Positions 4,337 through 56,462 of a stretch of 64,000 nucleotides of DNA are shown one piece after another. The position numbers were made by a program, and so were the translations under genes. The notes below the pieces were generated by a model. That model saw only the letters and a program-made list of their open reading frames with translations. It ran no database searches and was not told the origin of the DNA. Numbering within the stretch: the stretch's first letter is position 1; the number at the start of each line of letters is the position of its first letter. The DNA comes from a virus (lineage: Duplodnaviria > Caudoviricetes), in IMG/VR virus record IMGVR_UViG_3300005805_009498, positions 8,447-72,446 of that record; one strand, given 5' to 3'.

Positions 4337-6867
4337 TTTACTCCTATAAGTTCAAAGTTAACCTGAGAATATACTATATTTATTCCTGCGTTCACTACTT
4401 GTAAGTTTACCATTGGATTTCCTGCCACTCCCATGGAGTTAAAGACAATATCGTCATACTGCGGGGAAGGATCTACACCTATTTGTTTTTCCATAATAAA
4501 TGCAACCTCTGCAATCTCGTTGAATCTAAGAGGAACTATCTCCGATGATTCTACCTTTATAATGTGATTACACAGTACGCTGTTAGTAGATACAGAAGCC
4601 GCACTGATATATTGTTTATTTCCCAAACTATCTATGACAAAATAATCGTTATCTATTCCAGTGTTTGGTGCAACATTTCCAACTGCGTTTACTGAAAGCG
4701 TTCCCTCATTGAATTGTGCTGGCGCAAATTCCCTTGTGTGAGTCGAAAGATACGAATATATCACAGGGGAAGAATAAGTGACATCTGTGGTATTGTAGTA
4801 GGATGAATAAAAGGGTTGTGAAGAGGTAGGTACAGTTTTTGGTAACGGTTGCGCCCAAGGAATGGTTGAATCGTACACCATTATTGCAGTGTGCACCGGA
4901 ATTGGCGATCCAAGACCAACAGTCGTCGGAGAAACATTTGGTCCAGCAAGCTTAACGTTCACGTATCCGTAAGCAACAACAGTAACACGATAAAACGCAA
5001 TCTTACCGTCGCTGCTTGTATTTGCTTTTACCTTATTTAAAACCGACGCGCGCAGTCTAGGAGTTATAGGATGTACGTATTGTCTTCCTGTTACGGTATC
5101 TGCTACGCTTATGCTATAATCTACACTTATTCCAGGTACTGTTATGTCGCTTACTGCGGGAGCAGGAGACTTAAAGTCAGGGAAATCGTATTCAAGCTTT
5201 GCGGTTTGGGTAATAGGATCTACCCCGATTTTATTTTGAACCAAAGGGACGTACATCACTTCCTTTTGATACTTATACGAGTCCGTGGCCCTTGACTGAG
5301 GCCACCCCCATGATGAGATTCTAGAATCTATTAAATTACTTCCCTTAGCCGGATTAATATCGGGTCTCCATGCCGAAGCCAGAATGTTTTTAAAGGGTTC
5401 ATAATTACCTTCGTTCTGCGCAACCGTTAAGTAGTCTGCCCCCCATTTCATCTGATTGTTTGCCCCAAGTCTGTTTGGAAACGCAAGTTGGTTTGATGGG
5501 TGTAACCAGTTCGATGAATACGTTATCCTGGATCCTAGGAAATTCATCAGCGTCGGGTACGATGCAAATACTGATGGATTAATGTCTAGATTTAATGTGT
5601 TTCCGCTTCCGCTTGCTATAAATTTATCGGTAAGATTTATATCAAGCGCGGTGTTTGGATTTGAGCTAAACTGTAAATTTGCTCCCCCGCCATTAACGTT
5701 AATATCTGTAAATGCGTATTGTAACCCTGTTCCTCCAGGAGGAGATGCGTTTATTACCAATGTATTTCCGGTACTTCCGGAAAAACTCACACCGGTTCCT
5801 GCTTGAAATATTACCGATGTCTGCGTGAAAGCGGTAGTTGGGCTAGACAACAACAACGTTGATGTGTCGACTAAAGTCGACATGCTAATTTGCGGGTCGA
5901 TAACCACCGGATTTTGTTGTAATGGAATCCAGTTTGAATCATAGAAATATTCAAAATGATCTACGTTCCACCTAAACGATCCGTTTCCGTAATCGGAGGA
6001 CGATTCGTTATTTGAAACAAATCTTACGACCCCTCCGATTATACCGGAGGTCTTTGTGTCAGAACTCGAAAACGAGCTTGTTCCTAATAGAAAGTATGGG
6101 CCATTAAACCCTGAATTGTCTGCAGGTTTGTTTATTACTGTACGGTCTGCCGAGAGATTAAATAATTGTTTATGTGTTGCATAATCGTCCCTCAGACCAA
6201 ATATGGATAGGGTTTCCTGTTCGTTTCCGTCCCAATCAGAGCTGATTACATATCCAGATTCTTCTGTCCATGTTGGATCAGGAAGATCCTCTCTTGCCGG
6301 TTGGTTTGCGAGTCGTATGTTGTTTCCTTCGCTAAAGACCTTAAGCTTATAGTTTCCTCCAACGTTTCCGTCCAATCCTGAGGCAGCTTCTGCGACATCT
6401 GTAGTGAGAAGCAGATTGTTTTGTGCTAAAAGGTTTAGTATGGTGTTACTGGTCCTCTTAAAAAACGGATCATCGGTTGTATCACCACCACCAGCTCCGG
6501 TCGTCGATCTAGTTAGTGTTCCAACCTTACTCCAAACACCAGCATTTCCAACATATTGATATATGTCAGAAGTAGACAAATCTATGTATAGATCCGAATT
6601 TGCAGGTGTAGGTAGTATATTACTTGCAGGACCCCCCGTTCCGGTATACCACCTGCTGCCTCTATCCCCCTTCACACCTCTTGCTCCTGGAAGACCTGGA
6701 GGCCCTGGAGGACCCGATATTCCAGGAAGACCGGTTAAACCCCTCTTTCCTGCTGGGCCTCCTCCTGCAAATCCTAGCTGTTCAAAGTTGTAGTTAATCT
6801 TATCAAATGCCTGTGCCAGACCATCGGAGGACTGTACAAGAAGCAGATTTATTGGGGTAGTTGACAT
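4333..6867 (-). CDS. Collagen-like tail fibre protein
   Basis: N-terminal fibre-anchor motif DGLAQAFDKINYNFEQL, then a G-X-Y run (GKRGLTGLPGISGPPGPPGLPGARGVKGDRG), then WYTGTGGP...DLYID typical of phage fibres. Confidence 0.75.
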   Translation of the reverse strand: MSTTPINLLLVQSSDGLAQAFDKINYNFEQLGFAGGGPAGKRGLTGLPGISGPPGPPGLPGARGVKGDRGSRWYTGTGGPASNILPTPANSDLYIDLSTSDIYQYVGNAGVWSKVGTLTRSTTGAGGGDTTDDPFFKRTSNTILNLLAQNNLLLTTDVAEAASGLDGNVGGNYKLKVFSEGNNIRLANQPAREDLPDPTWTEESGYVISSDWDGNEQETLSIFGLRDDYATHKQLFNLSADRTVINKPADNSGFNGPYFLLGTSSFSSSDTKTSGIIGGVVRFVSNNESSSDYGNGSFRWNVDHFEYFYDSNWIPLQQNPVVIDPQISMSTLVDTSTLLLSSPTTAFTQTSVIFQAGTGVSFSGSTGNTLVINASPPGGTGLQYAFTDINVNGGGANLQFSSNPNTALDINLTDKFIASGSGNTLNLDINPSVFASYPTLMNFLGSRITYSSNWLHPSNQLAFPNRLGANNQMKWGADYLTVAQNEGNYEPFKNILASAWRPDINPAKGSNLIDSRISSWGWPQSRATDSYKYQKEVMYVPLVQNKIGVDPITQTAKLEYDFPDFKSPAPAVSDITVPGISVDYSISVADTVTGRQYVHPITPRLRASVLNKVKANTSSDGKIAFYRVTVVAYGYVNVKLAGPNVSPTTVGLGSPIPVHTAIMVYDSTIPWAQPLPKTVPTSSQPFYSSYYNTTDVTYSSPVIYSYLSTHTREFAPAQFNEGTLSVNAVGNVAPNTGIDNDYFVIDSLGNKQYISAASVSTNSVLCNHIIKVESSEIVPLRFNEIAEVAFIMEKQIGVDPSPQYDDIVFNSMGVAGNPMVNLQVVNAGINIVYSQVNFELIGVK

Positions 6868-6870
6868 ATG

Positions 6871-9800
6871 TTATCTTCGTTTTATATTGAATGCTAGTAA
6901 TATCTGTTTTGTTCCATCTACCGGGATATCGAAATCGAACGACCTGGACTCCTGTATTCCTATGCTATCAACCATTTTGAATCCCTCGGATTCAGGAGAG
7001 GCTTCGATAGAAACAACCTCTGTCCGTGAAAAAGGTCTTTCGTAGACTTCGATGCTTTCCACGCTATAACGATACAACAGATTTCTGTTTATATATTCCT
7101 TAGATATTTCATATGGGCTCAAAGTCGTATTTAATTCTTCCCATATAGAAGAAAAGAAAGAAAATACACCAGAGTTAAACAGGTGATCGGATATAACACG
7201 ATCGAAATCGATGTGTATCTTTAGTCCTGTTCCTATCGAGGAATAGAAAACGGCGCTTTCACTTGAGTTTGAAGGAACAGAAAAATCTAAACATGAATAT
7301 GTGTTGGTTCTAAAAAATGTAGGAACCGACATGCTCTTTGAAGCAAGAAAGAATTTGTGATCGACCGGGTCTTTTATTCCCTCTATTGGGACATCTACGA
7401 ATTCATCTTCTGCCATTACGTAAAAATCGGAGCCCCACACATCGGTTATAGGGGAAAAATTTCTCCTACCTATCGCATAAGGGAGTTTCAATAACTTTCC
7501 GTTCATGTTTATGGTTCCAAAATTCACTCCTTTTTCAGAGACACGCTTGTACCAAATGCTCAAAGGATTTACTTGTAAAACATATGTGTTGTATCCCTTA
7601 AATGAATTTAATACCTGTTTTGTGATAGAAACGTCTTCGGAAGCCGCAAAGGAAACAATGTTTTTATAGGATGGTTCAAACTCTCCATCCAACCTAAATA
7701 TGTTGGTGTTGCTTTCCCTTTCTCTTATATTCACGTTTCCAAACTCGTCTAGGTTGGCTTCTTTTATTTTTGTTGGCCTTATCACTGATGGGTTTAAATA
7801 GGAAATCTTTATTTTGCTTTTTGCCTCATCGGTGTTTAAGTTCACCAAGATGTCATCAAAATCCATAAGATTCATCCTAGAAATTATCGAGTTCGCTGTT
7901 ATGGAGTTAAGGGTATCCAAATATATCGGCCAATCTCCTATTGCGTATACCTTGGCTTTCTGGATGAATGTTGTTTTTCCTCCTATCGATATTACGTTGT
8001 TCTCAGAATAGTTTACGTATGTCACCGCTAAAGTTCTATCGACGTCGGATATCACTCCAAAAAAGTTATCCGAGTATATTCCATCTATAAATAGTCTTTC
8101 TTTTTGTAATTCTGGATCAAAAACCCCTCTGACCCTTGATCTTGGTATTACTATATCGATTTTCAGTTCCTGACCAGATCCAGAGAACACCGTTCCTGAT
8201 ACGATGTAATCGACGTTTGGAAAATACTTAACACCGAATATTTCTATGTCCTTCTGTCTATTATCGTATTTTATGATCTTGACGTTTTTGTATTGATATT
8301 GATTGTATTCGTTCTGGTCATCTCCTTCAGAAGGTGTATTTATTAAGACCGTCTCATCTTCATTGTAAGCCCTGTTTACCTTTGAAAACTCCAGAATATC
8401 GGATCCATACACCATCATTGGGCCGTATATCTTTCCGCTTTCTGTGTTTTCATAGTTGAACCTTAGATCGTACAACTGTTGAAGCGATATGGACCCATCG
8501 ATAGAATAGGAATCAACGTTAATTTGAACAAATAGTGTTAAAGTTTTCCAAACTTCGTTGTATATGAGGCTTATCTTTGAAGGTTTATCTAACTCGGGTT
8601 CTACCTGTAATATTGCGGCAAACTTTGAACCGGATATGTTTATTTTAGAATCGAAAACCAGAGGGATGCCCTTAAACGTGGTTGTATATCCTGTGTTTCC
8701 TTGCTCTATGGTGGTCCACAAAAATCTTTTTTCTCTCTGAGCACCGCCAGAAAACACTTCTTCGCCATATCCAACGGTGAGATAGTCTGTAAAATAGTCG
8801 TATGTAGTGGACTTAAGGTCATCGATACTTATCCTTTTTCCGATGTACTCGTAGGTTTTTTCTACCTCTTGCAAAGGATAAAATTTTGGCCACCCGGATA
8901 TGAGATACCAATCCAACGAAAACGCTGTTTTTGAGATCCCAGATTCCGTTGCGTTAACAAACATATCGTATGGTAATAGATTAGGATCAACGTTTATAAG
9001 ATATGGAGCCATATCGACATTAACCGTATTTCTTCTCTTCCATCTTCCCGATGTATTTTCTAGCTTATTATTTACAGACTGTGTTGAGGTTGCAAAATTT
9101 GTTATTGAAGTTTCTTCCGTAATCCCGTTAAAACCCAATTCTATCGGATCTGATTCAGGCTGAGCAGATTGATCATCCGATTCTATGACAACACTGTAGG
9201 TTCCTTGCTCAAGATTCGTTGTGTATCTGTAGTCTAGATGGTCGTCATCAATCGGAAGAATTGTTGTATAAACATAGGTGCCAGAATTGGAAGTCTTGTC
9301 AATGTTTTGTTGTCCAAGTTTATTAAATGCAAAAGAAACAAGTCGTTTTATTTCAGAAAATACCCTCAACCTTTTTTCATCTGCCGGTAATTGGTACATG
9401 AAAGAAATCAACGCGTTCATAACGGCCTGTAGGTCAAACCCTCCTCCAGCAGATCCAACTGGAGGTTTTCCATAGACTATGTCAACCGACCACATTTCAG
9501 AAGCGTTATAGTCATAATTTAAAAAGTAGTCGCTTATATAGAAGTCTGTGGTGGTTGTAACAGTCGGATAGGATATTTGATAATCGACCCATTGCTTATC
9601 CTTGTTTAGATATTGGATCTTGAACTGATTAGGCGATTTTAAAATGTTCCATACAAAAGGAAACTGGGAATTTTCCACGACATTTGTACCCCTTTGTTTC
9701 CTCTTGTTCTGATCAAGAAAATCTGGTTCCTTTTGTGGGTCCCAATTTCTCCACTCGGTGTAAATGTTTTCGGCAATGTTTACCGATAGCTTTAGATTTT

Positions 9801-44258: not shown

Positions 44259-44261
44259 AAA

Positions 44262-44291
44262 AAATAAAGGGCGCTTTTGCGCCCTTTATTT
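44262..44291. terminator. Rho-independent terminator ending the 49553-44286 operon
   Basis: 13-bp stem aaataaagggcgc-tttt-gcgccctttattt, with a T-run on the minus strand. Confidence 0.9.
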
Positions 44292-44645
44292 TATCTTTAT
44301 CACTTGATCGACGTGTTTGTGTAGCCTCTTCAAAGAATCGTTGTCCAACAAAAAGGATTTCTTTATCTCTATTTCAAGAGACAACAGCTCCTTTTTTATG
44401 TTTTTCACCAGTTCAACCGATATTGAGGGGTTGATATACTGAATGCTACTTTTCTTTTTCTTTTTGGCAAACTCAAATTCTTCCTTTAATATTAGATTCA
44501 TAAGGTAAACAGAAGTGTTTTCCATCTGTCCGTCTGAATTCTTTTTCAATCTTAGAAGTATTTTGTTTACATCTATGACATACGGTTTGGATCCCGTAGC
44601 GTACTTCGGTGCGTTGGATTTCTCCTTAGAAAAAATCAGGTTCAT
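44286..44645 (-). CDS. Hypothetical protein
   Basis: 119 aa, 4-nt overlap with the upstream gene, ends in the terminator. Confidence 0.7.
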   Translation of the reverse strand: MNLIFSKEKSNAPKYATGSKPYVIDVNKILLRLKKNSDGQMENTSVYLMNLILKEEFEFAKKKKKSSIQYINPSISVELVKNIKKELLSLEIEIKKSFLLDNDSLKRLHKHVDQVIKIK

Positions 44646-45079
44646 TTACTTAATTTTTTACTTTCAATCTTTTCTTGAACTTCCATGTTTCTTTCCATTA
44701 TCTCTGATACCTTTTCCTCAGAATATCCTTTTTCCAAAAGATGCGCAGCGATAGATTCGTTTCTTAGATCCATGGATTTTCTAATGTTTTTTATGACTTC
44801 CTCGGTGTTTGATGCATGAAGTTGTTTTCCGTTCTGTATGTTATTCTTTATGTTTTCAAACCAATCCTTATATCCTAATCGATTCTTTAACTTTATGTAT
44901 CCGCTTTGTTTTAACAAGGATCTTCTAAACTTTCTATTAAACGTCATGTTTGAGAATAACGAAGTATCAAAATCATCCTGAATAGCTGGATCTGGCTGTT
45001 CAACGCTTAGATCGATCTCTTGGACCGGGTTTTCTTGTTCTATGTTGTTTTCTTCCAAAACCTGTGTTTCCTCGTTCAT
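44642..45079 (-). CDS. Hypothetical protein
   Basis: 145 aa, acidic N-terminus, coupled by 4-nt overlaps. Confidence 0.75.
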   Translation of the reverse strand: MNEETQVLEENNIEQENPVQEIDLSVEQPDPAIQDDFDTSLFSNMTFNRKFRRSLLKQSGYIKLKNRLGYKDWFENIKNNIQNGKQLHASNTEEVIKNIRKSMDLRNESIAAHLLEKGYSEEKVSEIMERNMEVQEKIESKKLSK

Positions 45080-45648
45080 TTCTTTTCTCCGTAAATTTTT
45101 GTTATTGAATTTTTTATGGCGTTATTTATTTCTTCCTTGGATACCGATTCTACTATTATATCTATCACCTCATTGACTGTAGACTCATCAAAGGTTTCGT
45201 TTATCATCTTAAAAAATGACTTTGTCGGTAAGTTTATTTCCAATTCTATGGGAACGATCTCTGTACTTTTTTTGGATCTTAATAGTAGATCGGACGAGAA
45301 CGTTCCTCTACTCTTTTTGCTCTGCGTTTCCGTTGGTTTTTCTTTGACTCTTTCCAGGCCTAACATTGCCATGTGTTGGTCAGGAATGGCTGATTCGCTT
45401 TTAACCCTTTTTTGTTTTAAAACCTCGGGACTCTCAATTGGGTACATCATGTCCAAATCTATTCTGCCTAAAGCGTTTTCCTTTGTTGGAATAACGATGA
45501 AGTCCTTTCCCAATTTTGACATCGGAATCCTTTGACCGTTGGAAAGAACAGCAAAATCCTCAAAAGTTTGACTGTCCTGTGTTAGTTCAACCGGTTCAAC
45601 ATTTCCTCTGTTTGATCCTATTATCCATTGTAAGTATTGATTATTCAT
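45076..45648 (-). CDS. Hypothetical protein
   Basis: 190 aa, overlaps both neighbours. Confidence 0.75.
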   Translation of the reverse strand: MNNQYLQWIIGSNRGNVEPVELTQDSQTFEDFAVLSNGQRIPMSKLGKDFIVIPTKENALGRIDLDMMYPIESPEVLKQKRVKSESAIPDQHMAMLGLERVKEKPTETQSKKSRGTFSSDLLLRSKKSTEIVPIELEINLPTKSFFKMINETFDESTVNEVIDIIVESVSKEEINNAIKNSITKIYGEKK

Positions 45649-45952
45649 CGAAGAGCGTTATTATATTTTCTTGATAAAACTTTTTTCTATCTTCCTGCAT
45701 TGTATCTATGGTGTTGGTTATCATTTCCTTAAGAAATTCTAGATTTTCTTTAAAGAATATGTTTACCCCTCTTTTAGAGACATCGTCGGAATTTGATGTG
45801 AAGTTTTTTGGAATCTCGTTTATTCTCCAAAACAATAGTGGACGACAATCCACAAATTTTATGTTTACCTCTTTCCATCCGTTTGGCTTTACGGTTATCG
45901 TTTCACAAAGATCCCATTCTATGTCGTTTTCAATCTTGTAGTCTATCTTCAT
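45641..45952 (-). CDS. Hypothetical protein
   Basis: 103 aa, overlaps both neighbours. Confidence 0.7.
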   Translation of the reverse strand: MKIDYKIENDIEWDLCETITVKPNGWKEVNIKFVDCRPLLFWRINEIPKNFTSNSDDVSKRGVNIFFKENLEFLKEMITNTIDTMQEDRKKFYQENIITLFDE

Positions 45953-46647
45953 GCGTTAATTCCCCCTATTACCCTTGGCCAATAAACATCTGGGGATATT
46001 CCCATCAACTGTATCACCAATTCCAATTCCTTATCGGCGTTAAGACCATTAGGAAGATTCCAATGATGGCTTTCTACCGGTTTCACGTGAGAGGCTTTAA
46101 CATCGTCTATTATAGCAAGTCTTTCGTAATTAAGTTCCCTTGCCCATAGATAATCTTGCGCCCACCCTGAATATGTTATGGTGAATGTTCCAAGAACACG
46201 TCTTAGCGCCGATGTCTTAAACAACGGACACATTATCTCAACATAGTTTGTGTATCTAATGAACTTGGTTTGATCGTTCAATACTAATGGAAAACTATAG
46301 TAACTGTCATGGGTTAACGATGGCTGACATATATTTAGATTATAATCCTGCGCAATCGTAAACAATCTAGCTATCTCGGTTGGATCAAGATGAACATCGT
46401 AATCAGGCATCCATATCCAATCATACTGATCGAGTATGTCGTACTTTTCGATGAACCTCTTGTATATGTGATGTTTGTACCCTTTGTCTTTCACATAATA
46501 CTTTGCTGTTCCATACACCTGAGGATCGTCGTTCCATTCGTCAGGGTTGAAATTTATAAGAGCAAGATCAAATCCGCATAGTTTAAAGTCTTTGTCGTTA
46601 TAAAATCCCCCCTCGGCGCTTGTAGCTATGACGAGGTTTCTTTTCAT
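45949..46647 (-). CDS. DUF707-family GT-A glycosyltransferase-like protein
   Basis: YDWIWMPDYD (DxD), ICQPSL, YVEIMCPLF and SGWAQDYLW match the DUF707 pattern. Confidence 0.8.
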   Translation of the reverse strand: MKRNLVIATSAEGGFYNDKDFKLCGFDLALINFNPDEWNDDPQVYGTAKYYVKDKGYKHHIYKRFIEKYDILDQYDWIWMPDYDVHLDPTEIARLFTIAQDYNLNICQPSLTHDSYYSFPLVLNDQTKFIRYTNYVEIMCPLFKTSALRRVLGTFTITYSGWAQDYLWARELNYERLAIIDDVKASHVKPVESHHWNLPNGLNADKELELVIQLMGISPDVYWPRVIGGINA

Positions 46648-46883
46648 TGCTGTGTTTGTTCTTCTTGCTGCTGTGTAGCGTTTACCGATTCTACAGAGCG
46701 ATCAGGTCTAAAAAACACTATTGCATCATAAATGATCTTGGCTTCTTGAATTGAATATGCGCCAAGTCTTGTTGCGTGTTCTGCCGCGTTTACGAGAACG
46801 TTTATCGCCTTAGCTGGATCGTCTATCACATACGCAGGTGTTTGTGGACGTTCTGGTTGCGGTGTTTGTTCGGTTGTTTCCAT
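46644..46883 (-). CDS. Small hypothetical protein
   Basis: 79 aa, TAATG and ATGA coupling; GAYSIQEAKIIYDAI helix. Confidence 0.7.
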   Translation of the reverse strand: METTEQTPQPERPQTPAYVIDDPAKAINVLVNAAEHATRLGAYSIQEAKIIYDAIVFFRPDRSVESVNATQQQEEQTQQ

Positions 46884-47731
46884 TATTCCTCTACGAAAAA
46901 TTTGTTAAATATGTCGATGTAATCTTGTGTTTTAAGAACCGAAAAATCTTCTATAGATTCCATGTGTTCGTTAAAACGCTTTGCTTGTATTGATATTCCA
47001 GTATTTGGATCAAAGATCGGCTTAGTTATCTTTAGCTCTATATCATTATTTGAATTTGGATTTTCCTTTCTCAATTCTTGTACCAGAGAGAAATGTCTCT
47101 CGTAATAATGAGTATTATCAGAGCAATGATAGTAGGTTCCAACTTCGAGTTCGTTGTATTTTTCCTTTAGAAGAAGGTACATCGATTGATAAACAACAGA
47201 AAAGAACGGCGCATCGTATTGAAGACCATAGAATATGTCGTTTGATCTCATCTGTACCTTCATGTTTAGCTTATTATCTCTTATCCAAAAGTTCATATAC
47301 ATTGTACAAACGAAATCCTTAACACCTTGACGTTGATACGCCGGTGTATTAAAAACCATTATGGCTTGACGCGTAGATTTGTCGTTAATAAGGGCATCAT
47401 AGGCCCACTTGAACTGGCTTTTGTTTTGTCTTGAATTTATGATGTATCCGTAATTGGAATTAACACGGTTAAACTCATCTACCAGACTTTTCCAAAAGCT
47501 AGAAAATTCGTTGATTCTATTTATGTTTGTATCTTCACACAGATACCACCATAATTCTCCTATGAAATACTTCCAATTAAAAGCCTTGCTATCGAAGTTC
47601 ATGAGAGGGTATAACGGATCGAACTCAAGGGTGGTAAGATACTCTTCTACGACCTTTAATCCTCTTGGTGAATCTTCGGTTTCCATCCTTGAAAGGAGAG
47701 ACAGAACTTCGCTGTTTAGGGTTTTTTTCAT
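46883..47731 (-). CDS. Thymidylate-synthase-superfamily enzyme of the cytosine-specific type (dCMP hydroxymethylase-like, T4 gp42-like)
   Basis: E59, catalytic C142 (DFVCT), MRSND165, and D173 at the position of E. coli Asn177 / T4 gp42 Asp179; HYY210. Confidence 0.85.
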   Translation of the reverse strand: MKKTLNSEVLSLLSRMETEDSPRGLKVVEEYLTTLEFDPLYPLMNFDSKAFNWKYFIGELWWYLCEDTNINRINEFSSFWKSLVDEFNRVNSNYGYIINSRQNKSQFKWAYDALINDKSTRQAIMVFNTPAYQRQGVKDFVCTMYMNFWIRDNKLNMKVQMRSNDIFYGLQYDAPFFSVVYQSMYLLLKEKYNELEVGTYYHCSDNTHYYERHFSLVQELRKENPNSNNDIELKITKPIFDPNTGISIQAKRFNEHMESIEDFSVLKTQDYIDIFNKFFVEE

Positions 47732-47769: not shown

Positions 47770-48822
47770 CTAAAATAAAGCGATGATTTTTGTTTTTCTC
47801 GTTGGTTTTCCTGTTTCAAAATCATACATGTATGAGTGTCTGGATAGATGTACGGATCCAGGTTTTTCCATACACTGTTCCGCGTATTTTTCAGGGTCCA
47901 TCACATACCATTCATCTGGCCACCTAATGACCATATAATCATGGTCGTAAGAGAAATCGCTAATAAGTCTATTGAATTCCTTTACCGCATCTGATCTTTG
48001 TTGTCTTGTTCCGAAAAAAGGAGATCCTTTATACCATCCGGTTTTTGGGATCTTCCTTTCTTCGTGTTCTATGGGAAGAAGAGAAACCAACCAGACATTT
48101 TCTATTCCTCTATTGTCTTTAAGATCCTTTGCAAACTCTGCATATCTTTTAGCAAGATCAAGCAACGACGCCATTGGATCTTCCTGTCTAAAAATATGAT
48201 GCCTAACGTCTATGTTACCCATGTAAAGGATCACGTTTTTGGTTCCTTCAGGGAAATTAAATTGATCCTTTTTGTTTAAAAACCCGTGTAAAGTTTGGCC
48301 ATCGTTCCTGCTAATGTTTGCCCCTGGTTCATAGATAGAGACAGCATGACTGTCCCCATAGATGAAGGTTTTACTGTTAAGAACAACATCAATTCGAGGA
48401 ATGGACTCTGATATGGACTTATATCGTGAGGCGTCAAGTTCAACCCACTCTTCGCATGCGCCCTTTGCTCTTGAATTTATGAATTCACCGATATCAGGCA
48501 TATCGTGATTCAATATGAATATTTTTCCTTTAAATGATTCTAGCCTTTTTACCCTGTCTGCTACTTCCTTTGTTGCTCCTCCAAATAAGTTGAAAGTTCC
48601 TTGAAACTCCATAGGAAGAAGTATCAACCAAACATCGTAATTATGAATGTTATCGTCCTTAGTAAGGACATCGCATTCTATTTCAAGGCTGTTTAATTGA
48701 CAGCGTATTAGATATGGCCAGGAGGATTTGTGGGATTCTTTTTTTCTGCTATATGACGTAACAACGTCGTCTATGGCAATCCTTTTTCCCCTTAGATCAT
48801 CAAGAGCATCATATATGTTCAT
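47770..48822 (-). CDS. Fusion of a T4 beta-glucosyltransferase-like N-terminal domain and an SGNH hydrolase/acyltransferase domain
   Basis: N-half KRIAI...YLI...CDVLTK...NYDVWLIL...FNLFGG...FKGKIFILNHD parallels T4 BGT (KIAII...YLF...VDIISLK...DYDRLIVV...INFFGG...YKSKIYYLFTD). C-half has GDSH, G175, GNID and SVH blocks. Confidence 0.65.
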   Translation of the reverse strand: MNIYDALDDLRGKRIAIDDVVTSYSRKKESHKSSWPYLIRCQLNSLEIECDVLTKDDNIHNYDVWLILLPMEFQGTFNLFGGATKEVADRVKRLESFKGKIFILNHDMPDIGEFINSRAKGACEEWVELDASRYKSISESIPRIDVVLNSKTFIYGDSHAVSIYEPGANISRNDGQTLHGFLNKKDQFNFPEGTKNVILYMGNIDVRHHIFRQEDPMASLLDLAKRYAEFAKDLKDNRGIENVWLVSLLPIEHEERKIPKTGWYKGSPFFGTRQQRSDAVKEFNRLISDFSYDHDYMVIRWPDEWYVMDPEKYAEQCMEKPGSVHLSRHSYMYDFETGKPTRKTKIIALF

Positions 48823-48824
48823 CT

Positions 48825-49106
48825 TTATTTCTTCTCGTTATGATAGTTCTCTAAACCTTGGATGTATGCGACAGCATCTAAAAGATTATCCCTCTTATGC
48901 TGATAGCTCTCTCTGGAAAATTTAAGGGCTATGAGGGCCTTAAACATGTGATCCGCGCTAAGGTTCATCCCTGTCATACCGTTAAATATCATTGCGGCCC
49001 TTTCCATACCTTCGCTAAATGGGCCATATTGACGATCGGCTTCTTCCGATCGATTGTTAACTATTTCTTCTGCTTGTGTTAATATGCTCATAGATTTATT
49101 ATACAT
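48825..49106 (-). CDS. DUF6378-like all-helical protein (dNTP diphosphohydrolase-like)
   Basis: RQYGPFSE...LIALKFSRE...RDNLLDAVAYI pattern. Confidence 0.7.
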   Translation of the reverse strand: MYNKSMSILTQAEEIVNNRSEEADRQYGPFSEGMERAAMIFNGMTGMNLSADHMFKALIALKFSRESYQHKRDNLLDAVAYIQGLENYHNEKK

Positions 49107-49121
49107 TGTTAGATAGAATTG

Positions 49122-49553
49122 TTATTTATCATAGCCGTTTTCGTTTATCCATCGCAAATACTTTTTTAGTTCCTTGTCCTCTACCGTTATGGAATATACG
49201 CCCTGTTGAAATATCTTCCATGAATCCGAGGCGTACTTTCCCACTCCAGGAAGGGATTCAACGGAATTTCCATCCCAATTTAACCATTTTTCAGAGAATT
49301 TTTTCCACATCTTTGCCCTTCTATTGTAAAATCCTAGAGGCCTTATTATGGATATGATTTCCTCATCCGTTGCAGAACAAAGAGATTTTGCATCAGGAAA
49401 ACGAGAGAAGAACTGGTTTCTTACCTTATCCACTTGTTTGTACCCGGTCTGATTAAGCATCATACAAACCAGGAGCATCTTCCATGGGTCGTCTTGATAG
49501 ATTTCTTGACGATATTTAAAGGGACTGGTAGGGGGCTTTGTCGTTTTTTTCAT
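49122..49553 (-). CDS. MBD4-like HhH-GPD mismatch DNA glycosylase (143 aa; real start at 49553)
   Basis: DPWKMLLVCMMLNQT...RPLGFYNRRAK...LPGVGKYASDSWKIF...EDKELKKY closely follows the MBD4 catalytic domain; the catalytic Asp is present. Confidence 0.9.
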   Translation of the reverse strand: MKKTTKPPTSPFKYRQEIYQDDPWKMLLVCMMLNQTGYKQVDKVRNQFFSRFPDAKSLCSATDEEIISIIRPLGFYNRRAKMWKKFSEKWLNWDGNSVESLPGVGKYASDSWKIFQQGVYSITVEDKELKKYLRWINENGYDK

Positions 49554-49559
49554 GATTCT

Positions 49560-49579
49560 AATATATAGAAAAACTATAT
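49560..49579. promoter_or_regulatory. Divergent promoter region with AATATATAG and an inverted ATATAG/CTATAT pair
   Basis: 29-nt gap between divergent starts at 49553 (-) and 49583 (+). Confidence 0.5.
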
Positions 49580-49582
49580 CTT

Positions 49583-49900
49583 GTGAAAACTTTTTTACAG
49601 ATAAAAAGCATAAACGAATCGAAAGAAGGATACCAGGCATTAAAAGATCTAAATAGATTACATAAGTTAGAGCTTGAGATACAGGATATCCAAAGAACGG
49701 TTGTGGAACTATTGGATAAGGCAAAGAAATATAAGATTGGAAGCAAGGAAAGAGAAAAGTTGGAAGAAAGAATGTTTAAGTTTATCGAAGAGAAGAAAAG
49801 CATTCAGGAAGAGATAGATTACGAAATTAGAATTTTTAAGCGCTCCATTGCTTTAATTGACACGGATGGACACTTAGACGTAGAAGATTTTTTTAATTAA
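49583..49900 (+). CDS. Small coiled-coil protein, putative internal head protein
   Basis: GTG start; N-terminus MKTFLQIKSINES resembles the T4 capsid-targeting sequence. Confidence 0.65.
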   Translation: MKTFLQIKSINESKEGYQALKDLNRLHKLELEIQDIQRTVVELLDKAKKYKIGSKEREKLEERMFKFIEEKKSIQEEIDYEIRIFKRSIALIDTDGHLDVEDFFN

Positions 49901-55299: not shown

Positions 55300-55941
55300 T
55301 TATATGTGAACTGCTAAAAGTTCAGGAACTTCAATCCATTCGAACATTTTTCCAAGCCTATCGTAGGTGTAACCGTCATTATAATAACCTTGTTCTCCCG
55401 AGAATGTGTCCCAACCGCATGCGATCATAGCTTCCCTTCTAACAACCACCTGTTGCGTATCGATGTTTTGAAACACCGGTGGTATACCATTTATGACCTG
55501 TGGAGCAGAACCTAAGTGCTGAGGAAGGGGCCCTAGATGTAGAATCTTACATATTGAAAAAGCTTTATCGGGATTAGATTCCAACGCCTCTACGTTTCTT
55601 TCCACAAAGTGGGAAAACAGGACGTTATCATCGTCCATGTGAACCAAATACTTTATACTTAAATCGGATTCTATGAAGTTTCTAAGAACGTATTCTCTAA
55701 CTCCACCGCCGTAGGAGTTGGTGTTTTCTCCTGTACACACATAGATGATATACGGATCCTGAAGAGATTCAACGTATTGCTTTACGTGTTCTTCTTCCGG
55801 TCCGTCCGAACATATTATGTGTAACATCGATCCGGCATATGATTGGGATCTGACAGAACGAACCCCACGATCTATTATGTTTATGTCCCTCTTGTATGTC
55901 GGGGTTATTATTGCAACCTTTGGTAGCTGTGGATTTATCAT
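55300..55941 (-). CDS. Glycosyltransferase family 2 (GT-A)
   Basis: KVAIITPTYKR...IICSDG...YLVHMDDDN. Confidence 0.88.
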   Translation of the reverse strand: MINPQLPKVAIITPTYKRDINIIDRGVRSVRSQSYAGSMLHIICSDGPEEEHVKQYVESLQDPYIIYVCTGENTNSYGGGVREYVLRNFIESDLSIKYLVHMDDDNVLFSHFVERNVEALESNPDKAFSICKILHLGPLPQHLGSAPQVINGIPPVFQNIDTQQVVVRREAMIACGWDTFSGEQGYYNDGYTYDRLGKMFEWIEVPELLAVHI

Positions 55942-56462
55942 TGTATGTTGTATCCTTCTATTATTTCTAATATCTGTTCTTCTGTGTATTCGTCTGTATC
56001 AAGGATTATATCATAGTCTTTAAAGTTCGAGAAAGTTTTTTTATCCCGAGATATTCTTTTTAGTATCTGCAGAACGGAATCCCCTCTCTCTGTGGATCTT
56101 TTTATCCTTGTTACCAATGGAGCGGTAAGCTGTATTACCAGGGTTGATTCTGAAAGTTCGGAGGTTCTTAACTTAGATATGGCCTTTGGTGTCAATATGA
56201 AAATTTGACGTGCTTCCAGGTCTCTCATGGAAGTTCCATAATAGTCCCCAAAAACATCATCATATTCAAAGAAAAAATCCTGTTGTATAAGTTCTTCGAA
56301 CCTTTCCCTAGAAACAAAGTGATAATCATGACCCTCTATTTCGTTTTCTCTCATTGGACGGGTCGTGTAAGAAACCGAAGGATTAAGGTTTCTTTGTATC
56401 AATGACTGTTTTATCGTTGTTTTTCCCGAACAGGAGGGACCGCAAAGAACTATTCTTTTCAT
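55938..56462 (-). CDS. gmk: Guanylate kinase-like NMP kinase
   Basis: GPSCSGKTT P-loop, SYTTRPMRENEIEGHDYHFVS and YYGTS. Confidence 0.92.
   Translation of the reverse strand: MKRIVLCGPSCSGKTTIKQSLIQRNLNPSVSYTTRPMRENEIEGHDYHFVSRERFEELIQQDFFFEYDDVFGDYYGTSMRDLEARQIFILTPKAISKLRTSELSESTLVIQLTAPLVTRIKRSTERGDSVLQILKRISRDKKTFSNFKDYDIILDTDEYTEEQILEIIEGYNIQ

What the first reader, a model, noticed from the sequence alone, without database searches (positions are those of the whole stretch)
49122..49553. Stand-alone MBD4-type glycosylase leading the modification operon
Seen: a 143-aa protein resembling the eukaryotic MBD4 catalytic domain (DPWKM.., PLGFY..RAK, LPGVGKYASDSW with the catalytic Asp) more than MutY/Nth; it has no Fe-S cysteines. 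Known: MBD4 excises T, U and 5-hmU paired with G. Inference: it repairs deaminated modified cytosine in the phage genome. Alternatively it attacks host or competitor DNA. It may also inform the origin of eukaryotic MBD4.
Basis: partly seen in the sequence, partly recalled or inferred. Interest (0 to 1): 0.72.

Follow-up and report, generated by a model that had tools for sequence, protein, structure and literature searches.

The report
Phage stand-alone MBD4-type mismatch glycosylase
A large uncultured phage carries an intact, stand-alone copy of the catalytic domain of the eukaryotic DNA-repair enzyme MBD4 as the first gene of its cytosine-modification gene block; it most likely removes the thymine-like bases left opposite G when the phage's modified cytosines deaminate.

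Summary
Its best solved relatives are MBD4 glycosylase domains (E 1e-23, full length); MutY reaches 1e-6. The AF2 model (pLDDT 94.9) superposes on MBD4 at TM 0.88-0.92. It has no Fe-S cysteines.

One correction: the catalytic Asp is D126 in TVEDKEL (human D560), not the Asp in GKYASDSW. Q16 (hQ449) and Y107 (hY540) are kept. The Arg468 plug is Gln.

The gene opens a minus-strand block: DUF6378, a 350-aa unknown protein, an Asp-type (dCMP-type) thymidylate-synthase homologue and a DUF707 protein. The block is syntenic in relatives whose glycosylase is only 49% identical.

Homologues sit one gene upstream of the Asp-type TS in the all-5-methylcytosine phage Xp12. Six of seven near-complete phage genomes with this glycosylase have a route to 5-substituted cytosine.

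The link is not universal. Most of 113 loci show no TS nearby, one complete genome has none, and some homologues look bacterial.

Best reading (0.7): a monofunctional G:T / G:U / G:hmU mismatch glycosylase repairing deaminated modified cytosine. An AU test leaves the origin of eukaryotic MBD4 unresolved.

This scan has already noted phage MBD4-type glycosylases in at least 92 other genomes. I found no published description.

The parts
49122..49553 (-). MBD4-type HhH-GPD DNA glycosylase, 143 aa (P0001). Q16, L33, N34, L73, G74, Y107 and D126 correspond to human Q449, L466, N467, L506, G507, Y540 and D560. Q35 stands in place of R468.
49560..49587 (-). Promoter-like site (TTCACA-16-TATATT, 10 of 12) 7 nt upstream of the ATG. 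Weak evidence: site counts in the region are not above shuffles.
48825..49106 (-). DUF6378 protein, 93 aa, function unknown. It is the conserved immediate downstream neighbour of the glycosylase in the window lineage, in the P0059 lineage and in L056. In L097 it follows the Asp-type TS instead.
47770..48822 (-). 350-aa viral protein of unknown function (phrog_13881) with a weak C-terminal GDSL/SGNH-like signal.
46883..47731 (-). Thymidylate-synthase homologue of the cytosine (Asp) type. Best solved relative is T4 dCMP hydroxymethylase. The D in GLQYD aligns with T4 D179, and the Cys nucleophile is present.
46644..46883 (-). 79-aa ORF, no family, conserved in L007 (94% identity) and L071.
45949..46647 (-). 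DUF707-like protein, 232 aa (candidate glycosyltransferase; Pfam 3.5e-6, just above the cut-off).
44286..45952 (-). Four tightly packed hypothetical genes (103, 190, 145 and 119 aa) closing the block. Syntenic in L007; three of the four (103, 190 and 119 aa) were also found in L071.
44261..44292 (.). 14-bp-stem palindromic hairpin with T/A runs on both sides: terminator-like end of the block.
55300..56462 (-). GT2 glycosyltransferase (213 aa) and guanylate-kinase-like protein (174 aa; candidate dNMP kinase). Both lie about 6 kb upstream of the glycosylase in relatives too, so they may belong to the same pathway. Inference only.

Best explanation
The gene encodes an active, monofunctional mismatch-specific pyrimidine DNA glycosylase of the MBD4 type. 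Like the MBD4 catalytic domain, it should flip out T, U or 5-hydroxymethyl-U (or a further 5-substituted U) that is paired with G. It should read the base through Gln16 and Tyr107 and hydrolyse the glycosidic bond with Asp126. The resulting abasic site would be processed by host AP endonuclease, polymerase and ligase. The phage makes its DNA with a 5-substituted cytosine, started by the Asp-type TS homologue three genes downstream. Deamination of such cytosines gives T-like bases that uracil-DNA glycosylase cannot see. The enzyme would therefore be the repair arm of the modification block, transcribed together with it. Shown here: family membership, intact active-site residues, fold, purifying selection, conserved synteny, and recurrence next to cytosine-type TS genes in independent phage lineages. 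Inferred: substrate range, monofunctionality, the chemical identity of the phage's cytosine modification, and reliance on host enzymes after base removal.
For: (1) MBD4 is by far the closest solved family: E 1e-23 against 1e-6 for MutY, and TM 0.88-0.92 against 0.67 or less for the others. (2) The residues that PMC3479182 describes as forming the T/5hmU pocket and the catalytic centre are kept: Gln449 (essential), Tyr540, Leu466 and Asp560 correspond to Q16, Y107, L33 and D126. Q16, L33, N34, G74, Y107 and D126 are invariant in 54 diverse homologues. (3) Tyr occupies the position of the Nth lyase Lys120, as in monofunctional MBD4 (alignment; principle in PMC8307549). (4) The downstream TS homologue is closest to T4 dCMP hydroxymethylase (2.6e-20) and has Asp at the T4 D179 position. 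(5) The order Gly-DUF6378-350aa-AspTS-79aa-DUF707 and most of the following small genes is kept in L007 and in L071 (a 260-kb contig), although the L071 glycosylase is only 49% identical. (6) Independent lineages show the same link. In Xp12 (genome all 5mC per PMC7653180) and in Donnerlittchen the homologue lies one gene upstream of an Asp-type TS ('GLPYD'), with a MazG-like pyrophosphohydrolase between them, followed by dCMP deaminase and DHFR. S-TIM54 has an Asp-type TS plus a C5-methylase-like gene. G059, G062 and G067 have Asp-type TS genes, and G078 has a C5-methyltransferase. (7) Omega is 0.055-0.10 where dS is measurable. (8) Purified mouse MBD4 domain repairs heat-deaminated Xp12 (5mC) and T4gt (5hmC) DNA in all sequence contexts (bioRxiv 10.1101/2023.03.02.530819), so the chemistry fits the proposed task.
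Against: No biochemical data exist for any phage member. The Arg468 'plug' is Gln here, although this position varies across the family, including in plant MBD4-like proteins. The link to cytosine modification is not general. Only about 6 of 113 IMG/VR loci have an Asp-type TS within 10 kb. One 100%-complete 174-kb genome (G039) has neither a TS-family gene nor a C5-methylase. Several contigs have only Asn-type TS genes. One homologue (P0106) lies in a bacterial-looking context with TonB receptor and GyrB genes. No control for the base rate of Asp-type TS or C5-methylases in comparable phage genomes was run. The actual base in this phage's DNA is unknown. No AP endonuclease of the ExoIII or EndoIV families was found in this contig or in its 88%-complete relative.
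Confidence: 0.7

Rival explanations
1. It is a generic phage-borne G:T / G:U mismatch repair enzyme with no special tie to modified cytosine. On this reading, its place at the head of the modification block in this lineage is an accident of genome organisation.
For: The family is very widespread in viral contigs: at least 590 IMG/VR contigs. Most loci show unrelated neighbours such as LysM, QueD/PTPS and FkbM methyltransferase genes. G039 is complete and lacks TS and C5-methylase genes. P0108 sits beside an Fpg/Nei gene in a repair-like setting, and P0106 looks bacterial.
Against: Tight synteny with the Asp-type TS is kept while the glycosylase diverges to 49% identity. Adjacency to Asp-type TS has arisen in at least three separate clades of the tree: the window clade, the Xp12 clade and L097. 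Six of seven near-complete carrier genomes have a route to 5-substituted cytosine.
Confidence: 0.15
2. It is an offensive enzyme. It would excise bases from host or competitor DNA to help degrade it, for example unmodified cytosine, or T:G sites created by a phage deaminase, while the phage's own modified DNA is spared.
For: The gene sits in an early-looking block with nucleotide-pool genes. Phages with modified cytosine commonly destroy cytosine-containing host DNA (general knowledge of T4). Phage deaminases selective for 5mC exist (abstract of 10.1101/2024.12.05.627091). Relatives G003 and G040 encode a dCMP/cytidine deaminase-family protein.
Against: Gln449 and Tyr540, the residues that read O2, N3-H and O4 of T/U in MBD4, are invariant here. 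The loop lengths around the orphan-G contacts are unchanged, with one single-residue gap in the whole alignment. Nothing suggests a change of specificity. MBD4-type enzymes need a G mismatch, which normal host DNA lacks.
Confidence: 0.07
3. It is a step of the modification pathway itself. It would remove a base (unmodified or wrongly modified) so that a modified one can be put in, or act as a non-catalytic DNA-binding partner of the neighbouring DUF6378 and 350-aa proteins.
For: It is the first gene of the modification block. DUF6378 is its conserved immediate neighbour in three lineages. The functions of DUF6378 and the 350-aa protein are unknown.
Against: No HhH-GPD enzyme is known to work as a base-exchange enzyme (my knowledge). 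The catalytic Asp and base-reading residues are intact, so a non-catalytic role is unlikely. In L097 DUF6378 travels with the TS rather than with the glycosylase. Many homologues stand alone without these partners.
Confidence: 0.05

Closest known systems
Glycosylase domain of mammalian MBD4/MED1 (human residues about 426-580; PDB 1NGN, 3IHO, 4DK9, 4E9E-H, 4EVV, 4EW0, 6VJW)
   Same: Same fold and length of the catalytic domain (TM 0.88-0.92, 36-37% identity). Same catalytic Asp, Gln and Tyr of the pyrimidine pocket, no Fe-S cluster, and Tyr in place of the lyase Lys.
   Different: No methyl-CpG-binding domain or linker: the phage protein is the bare 143-aa domain. Arg468 (helix-filling plug) is Gln, Leu508 is Phe and Lys562 is Glu. 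It is encoded by a phage inside a cytosine-modification gene block.
Plant and algal MBD4-like proteins (MBD4L; e.g. the Marchantia, Chara and Saponaria proteins found here)
   Same: Same subfamily in the tree. These long proteins carry only the C-terminal glycosylase domain and, in the members scanned, no recognisable MBD. The plug residue is variable there too.
   Different: They are long eukaryotic proteins with N-terminal extensions. Whether the phage forms are ancestral, derived or sister to them is unresolved (AU p 0.67).
Mig.MthI thymine-DNA glycosylase of Methanothermobacter plasmid pFV1 (PDB 1KEA), and the E. coli Dcm-Vsr pair
   Same: Same biological logic (my knowledge): a T:G-mismatch repair enzyme encoded next to the enzyme that creates 5-methylcytosine. 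Mig is also an HhH-GPD enzyme and is the next-best structural match (TM 0.67).
   Different: Mig has a 4Fe-4S cluster and belongs to the Nth/MutY branch. Vsr is an endonuclease, not a glycosylase. Both serve site-specific methylation, not wholesale replacement of cytosine.
Hypothetical protein QNN97216.1 of Xanthomonas phage Xp12 and homologues in other Bradleyvirinae (annotated 'hypothetical', 'ENDO3c domain' or 'endonuclease III')
   Same: Stand-alone phage MBD4-type glycosylase (35% identity, E 1e-18) placed just upstream of an Asp-type TS homologue in a phage known to contain 5mC instead of C.
   Different: It belongs to a different clade of the family and has Leu at the plug position. Its neighbours are a MazG-like pyrophosphohydrolase, dCMP deaminase and DHFR rather than DUF6378, the 350-aa protein and DUF707.

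Membership tests
MBD4-type subfamily of HhH-GPD DNA glycosylases | HhH-GPD fold | tested here: met
   Pfam PF00730 at 5.8e-11, above the cut-off. AF2 pLDDT 94.9. Foldseek TM 0.88-0.92 to 16 MBD4 structures.
MBD4-type subfamily of HhH-GPD DNA glycosylases | Closer to MBD4 than to Nth, MutY, Mig or AlkA over the whole domain | tested here: met
   phmmer E 1e-23 for MBD4 against 1e-6 or worse for the rest. The tree separates 131 MBD4-type rows from five Fe-S outgroup rows (E. coli Nth and MutY, the APSV1 glycosylase, and Nth- and MutY-type ORFs from two phage-labelled records) with SH-aLRT 98.
MBD4-type subfamily of HhH-GPD DNA glycosylases | Catalytic Asp of the GPD motif (human D560) | tested here: met
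   D126 aligns with mouse D534 / human D560. It is invariant in alignment A1 and present in 177 of 182 short homologues.
MBD4-type subfamily of HhH-GPD DNA glycosylases | Pyrimidine-pocket residues Gln449 and Tyr540 (and Leu466) | tested here: met
   These correspond to Q16, Y107 and L33, all invariant in A1. Their roles are taken from PMC3479182.
MBD4-type subfamily of HhH-GPD DNA glycosylases | Arg468 filling the gap left by the flipped base | tested here: not met
   The position is Gln35. It is variable across the family: Q101, L39, C21, R13 in short forms and R18, K14, Q13 in long eukaryotic forms. It is therefore not a family-defining residue, and E. coli Nth and MutY also have Gln at this column of the alignment.
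MBD4-type subfamily of HhH-GPD DNA glycosylases | No 4Fe-4S cluster loop | tested here: met
   The protein has only two Cys, and no C-x6-C-x2-C-x5-C motif occurs in any of 267 homologues.
MBD4-type subfamily of HhH-GPD DNA glycosylases | Monofunctional: no lyase Lys in the HhH second helix | tested here: met
   Tyr107 occupies the column of E. coli Nth Lys120. This is at sequence level only; the chemistry was not assayed.
MBD4-type subfamily of HhH-GPD DNA glycosylases | Excision of T, U and 5hmU opposite G | not testable with these tools
   Needs enzyme assays.
Full-length MBD4 (MED1) of animals | N-terminal methyl-CpG-binding domain | tested here: not met
   The protein is 143 aa and is covered end to end by the glycosylase domain.
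Nth / MutY / Mig branch of HhH-GPD | C-terminal 4Fe-4S cluster, and for Nth the lyase Lys | tested here: not met
   NCBIfam nth and mutY models score 36-40 bits against cut-offs of 212-287.
Phage pre-replicative cytosine replacement pathway (T4 / Xp12 type) | dCMP-specific TS homologue (Asp at the T4 D179 / E. coli N177 position) | tested here: met
   The D in GLQYD aligns with T4 D179. T4 dCMP hydroxymethylase is the best solved match at 2.6e-20.
Phage pre-replicative cytosine replacement pathway (T4 / Xp12 type) | dCTP-removing pyrophosphatase and dNMP kinase for the modified nucleotide | tested here: inconclusive
   A guanylate-kinase-like gene lies at 55938-56462. No dCTPase was recognised in the 72-kb fragment, and DUF6378 could not be assigned. 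The contig is only about 24% of the genome.

The most novel reading that the evidence does not exclude
Phage MBD4-type glycosylases may be a dedicated, co-evolving 'maintenance arm' of cytosine-replacement systems. In this lineage the enzyme may be tuned to excise the deaminated form of a still-unknown hypermodified cytosine, possibly working with the conserved DUF6378 neighbour. The eukaryotic MBD4 domain may have been acquired from this viral/bacterial pool.
Probability: 0.15. Interest if true: 0.72.

Novelty: new member of a known kind. Interest (0 to 1): 0.5.

Why it matters
Genomes in which every cytosine is 5-substituted face a specific problem. Deamination yields thymine-like bases that the ubiquitous uracil-DNA glycosylase ignores. 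A phage-borne MBD4-type enzyme, encoded with the modification genes, would be a simple solution and would explain how such genomes stay stable. The same pairing in Xp12, a cultivable model whose gene is still annotated 'hypothetical', makes the idea testable with ordinary genetics and enzymology. These small, cluster-free, apparently context-independent T:G / hmU:G glycosylases could also be useful reagents for removing deamination artefacts in methylation sequencing, a task for which mouse MBD4 is already used (10.1101/2023.03.02.530819). The family's breadth (at least 590 viral contigs; 923 cluster representatives at E <= 1e-10) also shows that the 'eukaryotic' MBD4 domain is one branch of a mostly viral and microbial family. 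The direction of transfer remains open.

Tried and rejected
- Megablast of 12 kb around the gene against GenBank phages found no match.
- PHROGs has no family for the glycosylase.
- Literature searches found no description of phage MBD4-type glycosylases. The MetaGPA paper does not mention glycosylases. Iyer et al. 2013 (NAR) is not held, so I could not check whether it mentions the family.
- DUF6378: no PDB sequence match. BLASTP and hhalign against the Xp12 MazG-like neighbour found nothing. The Atlas returns only other DUF6378 clusters. The AF2 model from 6 sequences is poor (pLDDT 66) and Foldseek gave no hit. Its role stays unknown.
- The C-terminal half of the Xp12 257-aa protein gives only a faint DUF1599 hit (E 0.23). 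This is a lead, not a result.
- 350-aa protein: PDB and Atlas gave nothing usable.
- The genome search could not reach the ENA/JGI contigs of the P0059 lineage. Whether that lineage has a second, Asp-type TS is therefore unknown.
- The idea that eukaryotic MBD4 is nested inside phage forms came from the quick tree. I dropped it after the AU test: the constrained tree was even better, p 0.67.
- A survey of common neighbours in 113 loci gave no family-wide partner gene.
- An inactive or pseudogene reading is rejected on the intact catalytic residues and omega of 0.055-0.10.

Full report
**The gene.** On the minus strand, an ATG at 49553 opens a 143-codon frame that ends with TAA at 49122-49124. 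The longer TTG-initiated frame (200 aa) overlaps a plus-strand ORF. Homologues do not support it: the closest ones are 143 aa long and cover 99-100% of the query. Where synonymous divergence can be measured between close relatives, omega is 0.055-0.10. In the other pairs dS is saturated while dN is only 0.09-0.26. This is a real gene under purifying selection.

**Family.**
- Pfam assigns HhH-GPD at 5.8e-11.
- Against all PDB sequences, the first 15 distinct hits are MBD4 glycosylase domains (E 1e-23 to 1e-21). They align from residue 5 to 139 with a single one-residue gap. MutY, the archaeal Mig enzyme and Nth follow at 1e-6 to 1e-2.
- NCBIfam nth and mutY models reach only 36-40 bits against cut-offs above 200.
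- An AF2 model built on 54 homologues has pLDDT 94.9. It matches 16 MBD4 structures at TM 0.88-0.92 and rmsd 1.2-1.5 A. The next hit is Mig.MthI at TM 0.67, and MutY and Nth are near 0.6.
- None of 267 collected homologues has the Fe-S cysteine motif.
- In a tree of 136 non-redundant domains, the Fe-S enzymes separate from 131 MBD4-type rows with SH-aLRT 98. The Fe-S group is E. coli Nth and MutY, a crenarchaeal virus glycosylase, and two Nth/MutY-type genes in phage-labelled records.

**Active site.** I mapped residues through the alignment to mouse MBD4 (1NGN), using the structural description in PMC3479182.
- Gln449, essential for base recognition, is Q16.
- Leu466 is L33.
- Tyr540 is Y107.
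- Leu506, whose carbonyl reads the orphan G, is L73.
- The catalytic Asp560 is D126, in the segment TVEDKEL.
- The D534N mutant chain of mouse MBD4 marks this column unambiguously.
That Asp (D110) is conserved in the family but is not the GPD-motif Asp.
- Q16, L33, N34, G74, Y107 and D126 are invariant in 54 diverse homologues.
- Tyr107 sits where Nth has its lyase Lys. This fits a monofunctional enzyme, as stated for MBD4 in PMC8307549.
- The one notable difference is the Arg468 plug, which is Gln here. The position varies throughout the family, including plant MBD4-like proteins, and E. coli Nth and MutY also have Gln at this column.

**Genomic setting.** The window is part of a 72-kb IMG/VR viral contig judged about 24% complete. 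A relative reaches 260 kb at 88% completeness, so this is a large phage of roughly 300 kb.

The glycosylase is the first minus-strand gene after two short plus-strand ORFs. A promoter-like site lies just upstream. Terminator hairpins close the preceding capsid operon (50615-50528) and the end of the block (44261-44292). Downstream, with gaps of -4 to 38 nt, come:
- a DUF6378 protein;
- a 350-aa protein of a viral family without function, with a weak GDSL signal;
- a TS homologue;
- a 79-aa ORF;
- a DUF707-like protein;
- four small hypothetical genes.

The TS homologue is closest to T4 dCMP hydroxymethylase (2.6e-20, against 1e-11 to 1e-13 for true TS). It has Asp at the position of T4 Asp179. 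It therefore most likely acts on dCMP. Whether it makes 5-hydroxymethyl- or 5-methyl-dCMP cannot be told from sequence.

**Is the link to cytosine modification more than local accident?** Several results say yes.
- The gene order is conserved in L007, and nearly all of it in L071. In L071 the glycosylase has drifted to 49% identity and the TS to 52%.
- The best GenBank phage hits are the Xp12 group, Stenotrophomonas AXL1 and Janthinobacterium Donnerlittchen (E 1e-16 to 1e-18).
- Xp12 is the classic phage whose cytosine is fully replaced by 5mC (PMC7653180). In Xp12 and Donnerlittchen the homologue, annotated 'hypothetical' or 'endonuclease III', lies one gene upstream of a TS homologue that also carries Asp ('GLPYD'). 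A MazG/PRA-PH pyrophosphohydrolase lies between them, and dCMP deaminase and DHFR follow.
- Cyanophage S-TIM54 has a homologue, plus an Asp-type TS ('GVPLD') beside a C5-methylase-like gene 30 kb away.
- In a further lineage (L097) the glycosylase, an Asp-type TS and a DUF6378 gene lie within 6 kb in a different order.

Near-complete genomes that carry the glycosylase:

| Genome | Route to 5-substituted cytosine |
|---|---|
| Xp12 | Asp-type TS |
| Donnerlittchen | Asp-type TS |
| S-TIM54 | Asp-type TS (plus a C5-methylase-like gene) |
| G040 | Asp-type TS |
| G067 | Asp-type TS (plus an Asn-type TS) |
| G078 | C5-methyltransferase (1e-40), with an Asn-type TS |
| G039 | neither found |

**Limits of that link.**
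- The family is large: at least 590 IMG/VR contigs and 923 cluster representatives at E <= 1e-10.
- Most loci show no TS within 10 kb.
- Nine of 50 larger contigs carry only Asn-type TS genes.
- Common neighbours differ by lineage: LysM, QueD and FkbM-type genes.
- One homologue sits beside an Fpg/Nei gene in a jumbo-phage-like contig.
- One homologue is in a bacterial-looking region.
- A widespread lineage (P0059; 229-aa form with a C-terminal extension) keeps the Gly-DUF6378 pair. It lies near a T4-type alpha-glucosyltransferase (PF11440, 1.9e-22) and a dUTPase_2-family protein. The nearby TS there is Asn-type, and I could not search the rest of those contigs.
- I ran no matched control for base rates.

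The basal function of the family is thus probably plain G:T/U mismatch repair, recruited repeatedly by phages with 5-substituted cytosine.

**Mechanism proposed.** 5mC and 5hmC deaminate to T and 5hmU, which Ung cannot remove. In an all-modified genome, every such event is a G mismatch that only a mismatch-specific pyrimidine glycosylase can correct towards G:C. Mouse MBD4 domain does exactly this on deaminated Xp12 and T4gt DNA in every sequence context (10.1101/2023.03.02.530819). In MBD4 the 5-hydroxymethyl group makes no protein contact, so other 5-substituents may be tolerated as well.

No ExoIII- or EndoIV-family gene was found in this contig, in G003 or in the 88%-complete G040. The abasic site is therefore presumably handed to host enzymes. 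These steps are inferred, not shown.

**Origin of eukaryotic MBD4.** The long proteins in the family are eukaryotic (Chara, Marchantia, Saponaria, Chlorokybus). In the quick tree they fall in one subclade inside short forms. But the AU test does not reject a tree in which all other short forms are a single sister group (p 0.67; the constrained tree scored better). The short metagenomic sequences nearest the eukaryotes have no taxonomy. Nothing can be concluded about direction.

**Prior notes and literature.** [quoted passage not shown] Within this scan the same kind of gene has been noted 136 times in at least 92 genomes. Follow-up agents reached the same reading, including the Xp12 link. I reached the Xp12 result independently, before reading those notes.

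**Verdict.** This is an orthodox, intact member of the MBD4-type glycosylase family in a new host setting. It is credibly, but not exclusively, tied to modified-cytosine genomes.

Noticed in passing
window:48825-49106 (-); also L046:10706-10999, L056:779-1039, L097:15478-15732: DUF6378 (93 aa, highly conserved, 58 invariant positions in 6 sequences) travels with the MBD4-type glycosylase or with the Asp-type TS in at least three phage lineages. Its fold and function remain unknown: the AF2 model has pLDDT 66 and there are no structural or PDB sequence matches.
   Followed up: partly
L001 (Xp12, MT664984.1) 5908-8037: Xp12's 'hypothetical protein' QNN97216.1 is an MBD4-type glycosylase. The adjacent 257-aa 'HAD hydrolase' is actually a MazG/PRA-PH-type pyrophosphohydrolase (6.6e-15), with a C-terminal half giving only a faint DUF1599 hit. 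Its 'thymidylate synthase' carries Asp at the specificity position, as expected for the dCMP methylase.
   Followed up: partly
window:47770-48822 (-): A 350-aa protein (phrog_13881, weak GDSL/SGNH signal at residues 165-316) always follows DUF6378 in this lineage. It also occurs in L056 and L057. There is no solved relative by sequence. It is a candidate DNA- or nucleotide-modifying enzyme of unknown chemistry.
   Followed up: partly
L046:12397-20542 (ENA contig, P0059 lineage): This widespread phage lineage has a T4-type DNA alpha-glucosyltransferase homologue and a dUTPase_2-family protein. Its family-B DNA polymerase is called as two ORFs (467 and 402 aa), separated by ribonucleotide reductase genes and a 249-aa ORF. 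Its glycosylase has an extra C-terminal region of about 85 aa.
   Followed up: no
window:55300-56462 (-): A GT2 glycosyltransferase and a guanylate-kinase-like protein overlap by 4 nt. They keep the same position relative to the glycosylase block in L005, L007 and L071. They may be the sugar-transfer and dNMP-kinase steps of the modification pathway.
   Followed up: partly
L144 (G053, IMG/VR provirus) 259-2118: A 620-aa open frame contains a divergent TS-like segment (below the Pfam cut-off) with Asp at the specificity column, in a contig that also has an MBD4-type glycosylase.
   Followed up: no
L124:8268-8759 and about 20 related loci: In the S-TIM54-like marine group, a QueD/PTPS gene (3.6e-16) is a frequent close neighbour of the glycosylase.
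   Followed up: no
L052 (OR846587.1) and L054 (MT837372.1): The weaker 'phage' hits of the tblastn search are ordinary Fe-S Nth- and MutY-type genes in unverified phage-labelled records. They look bacterial and were used only as outgroups.
   Followed up: partly
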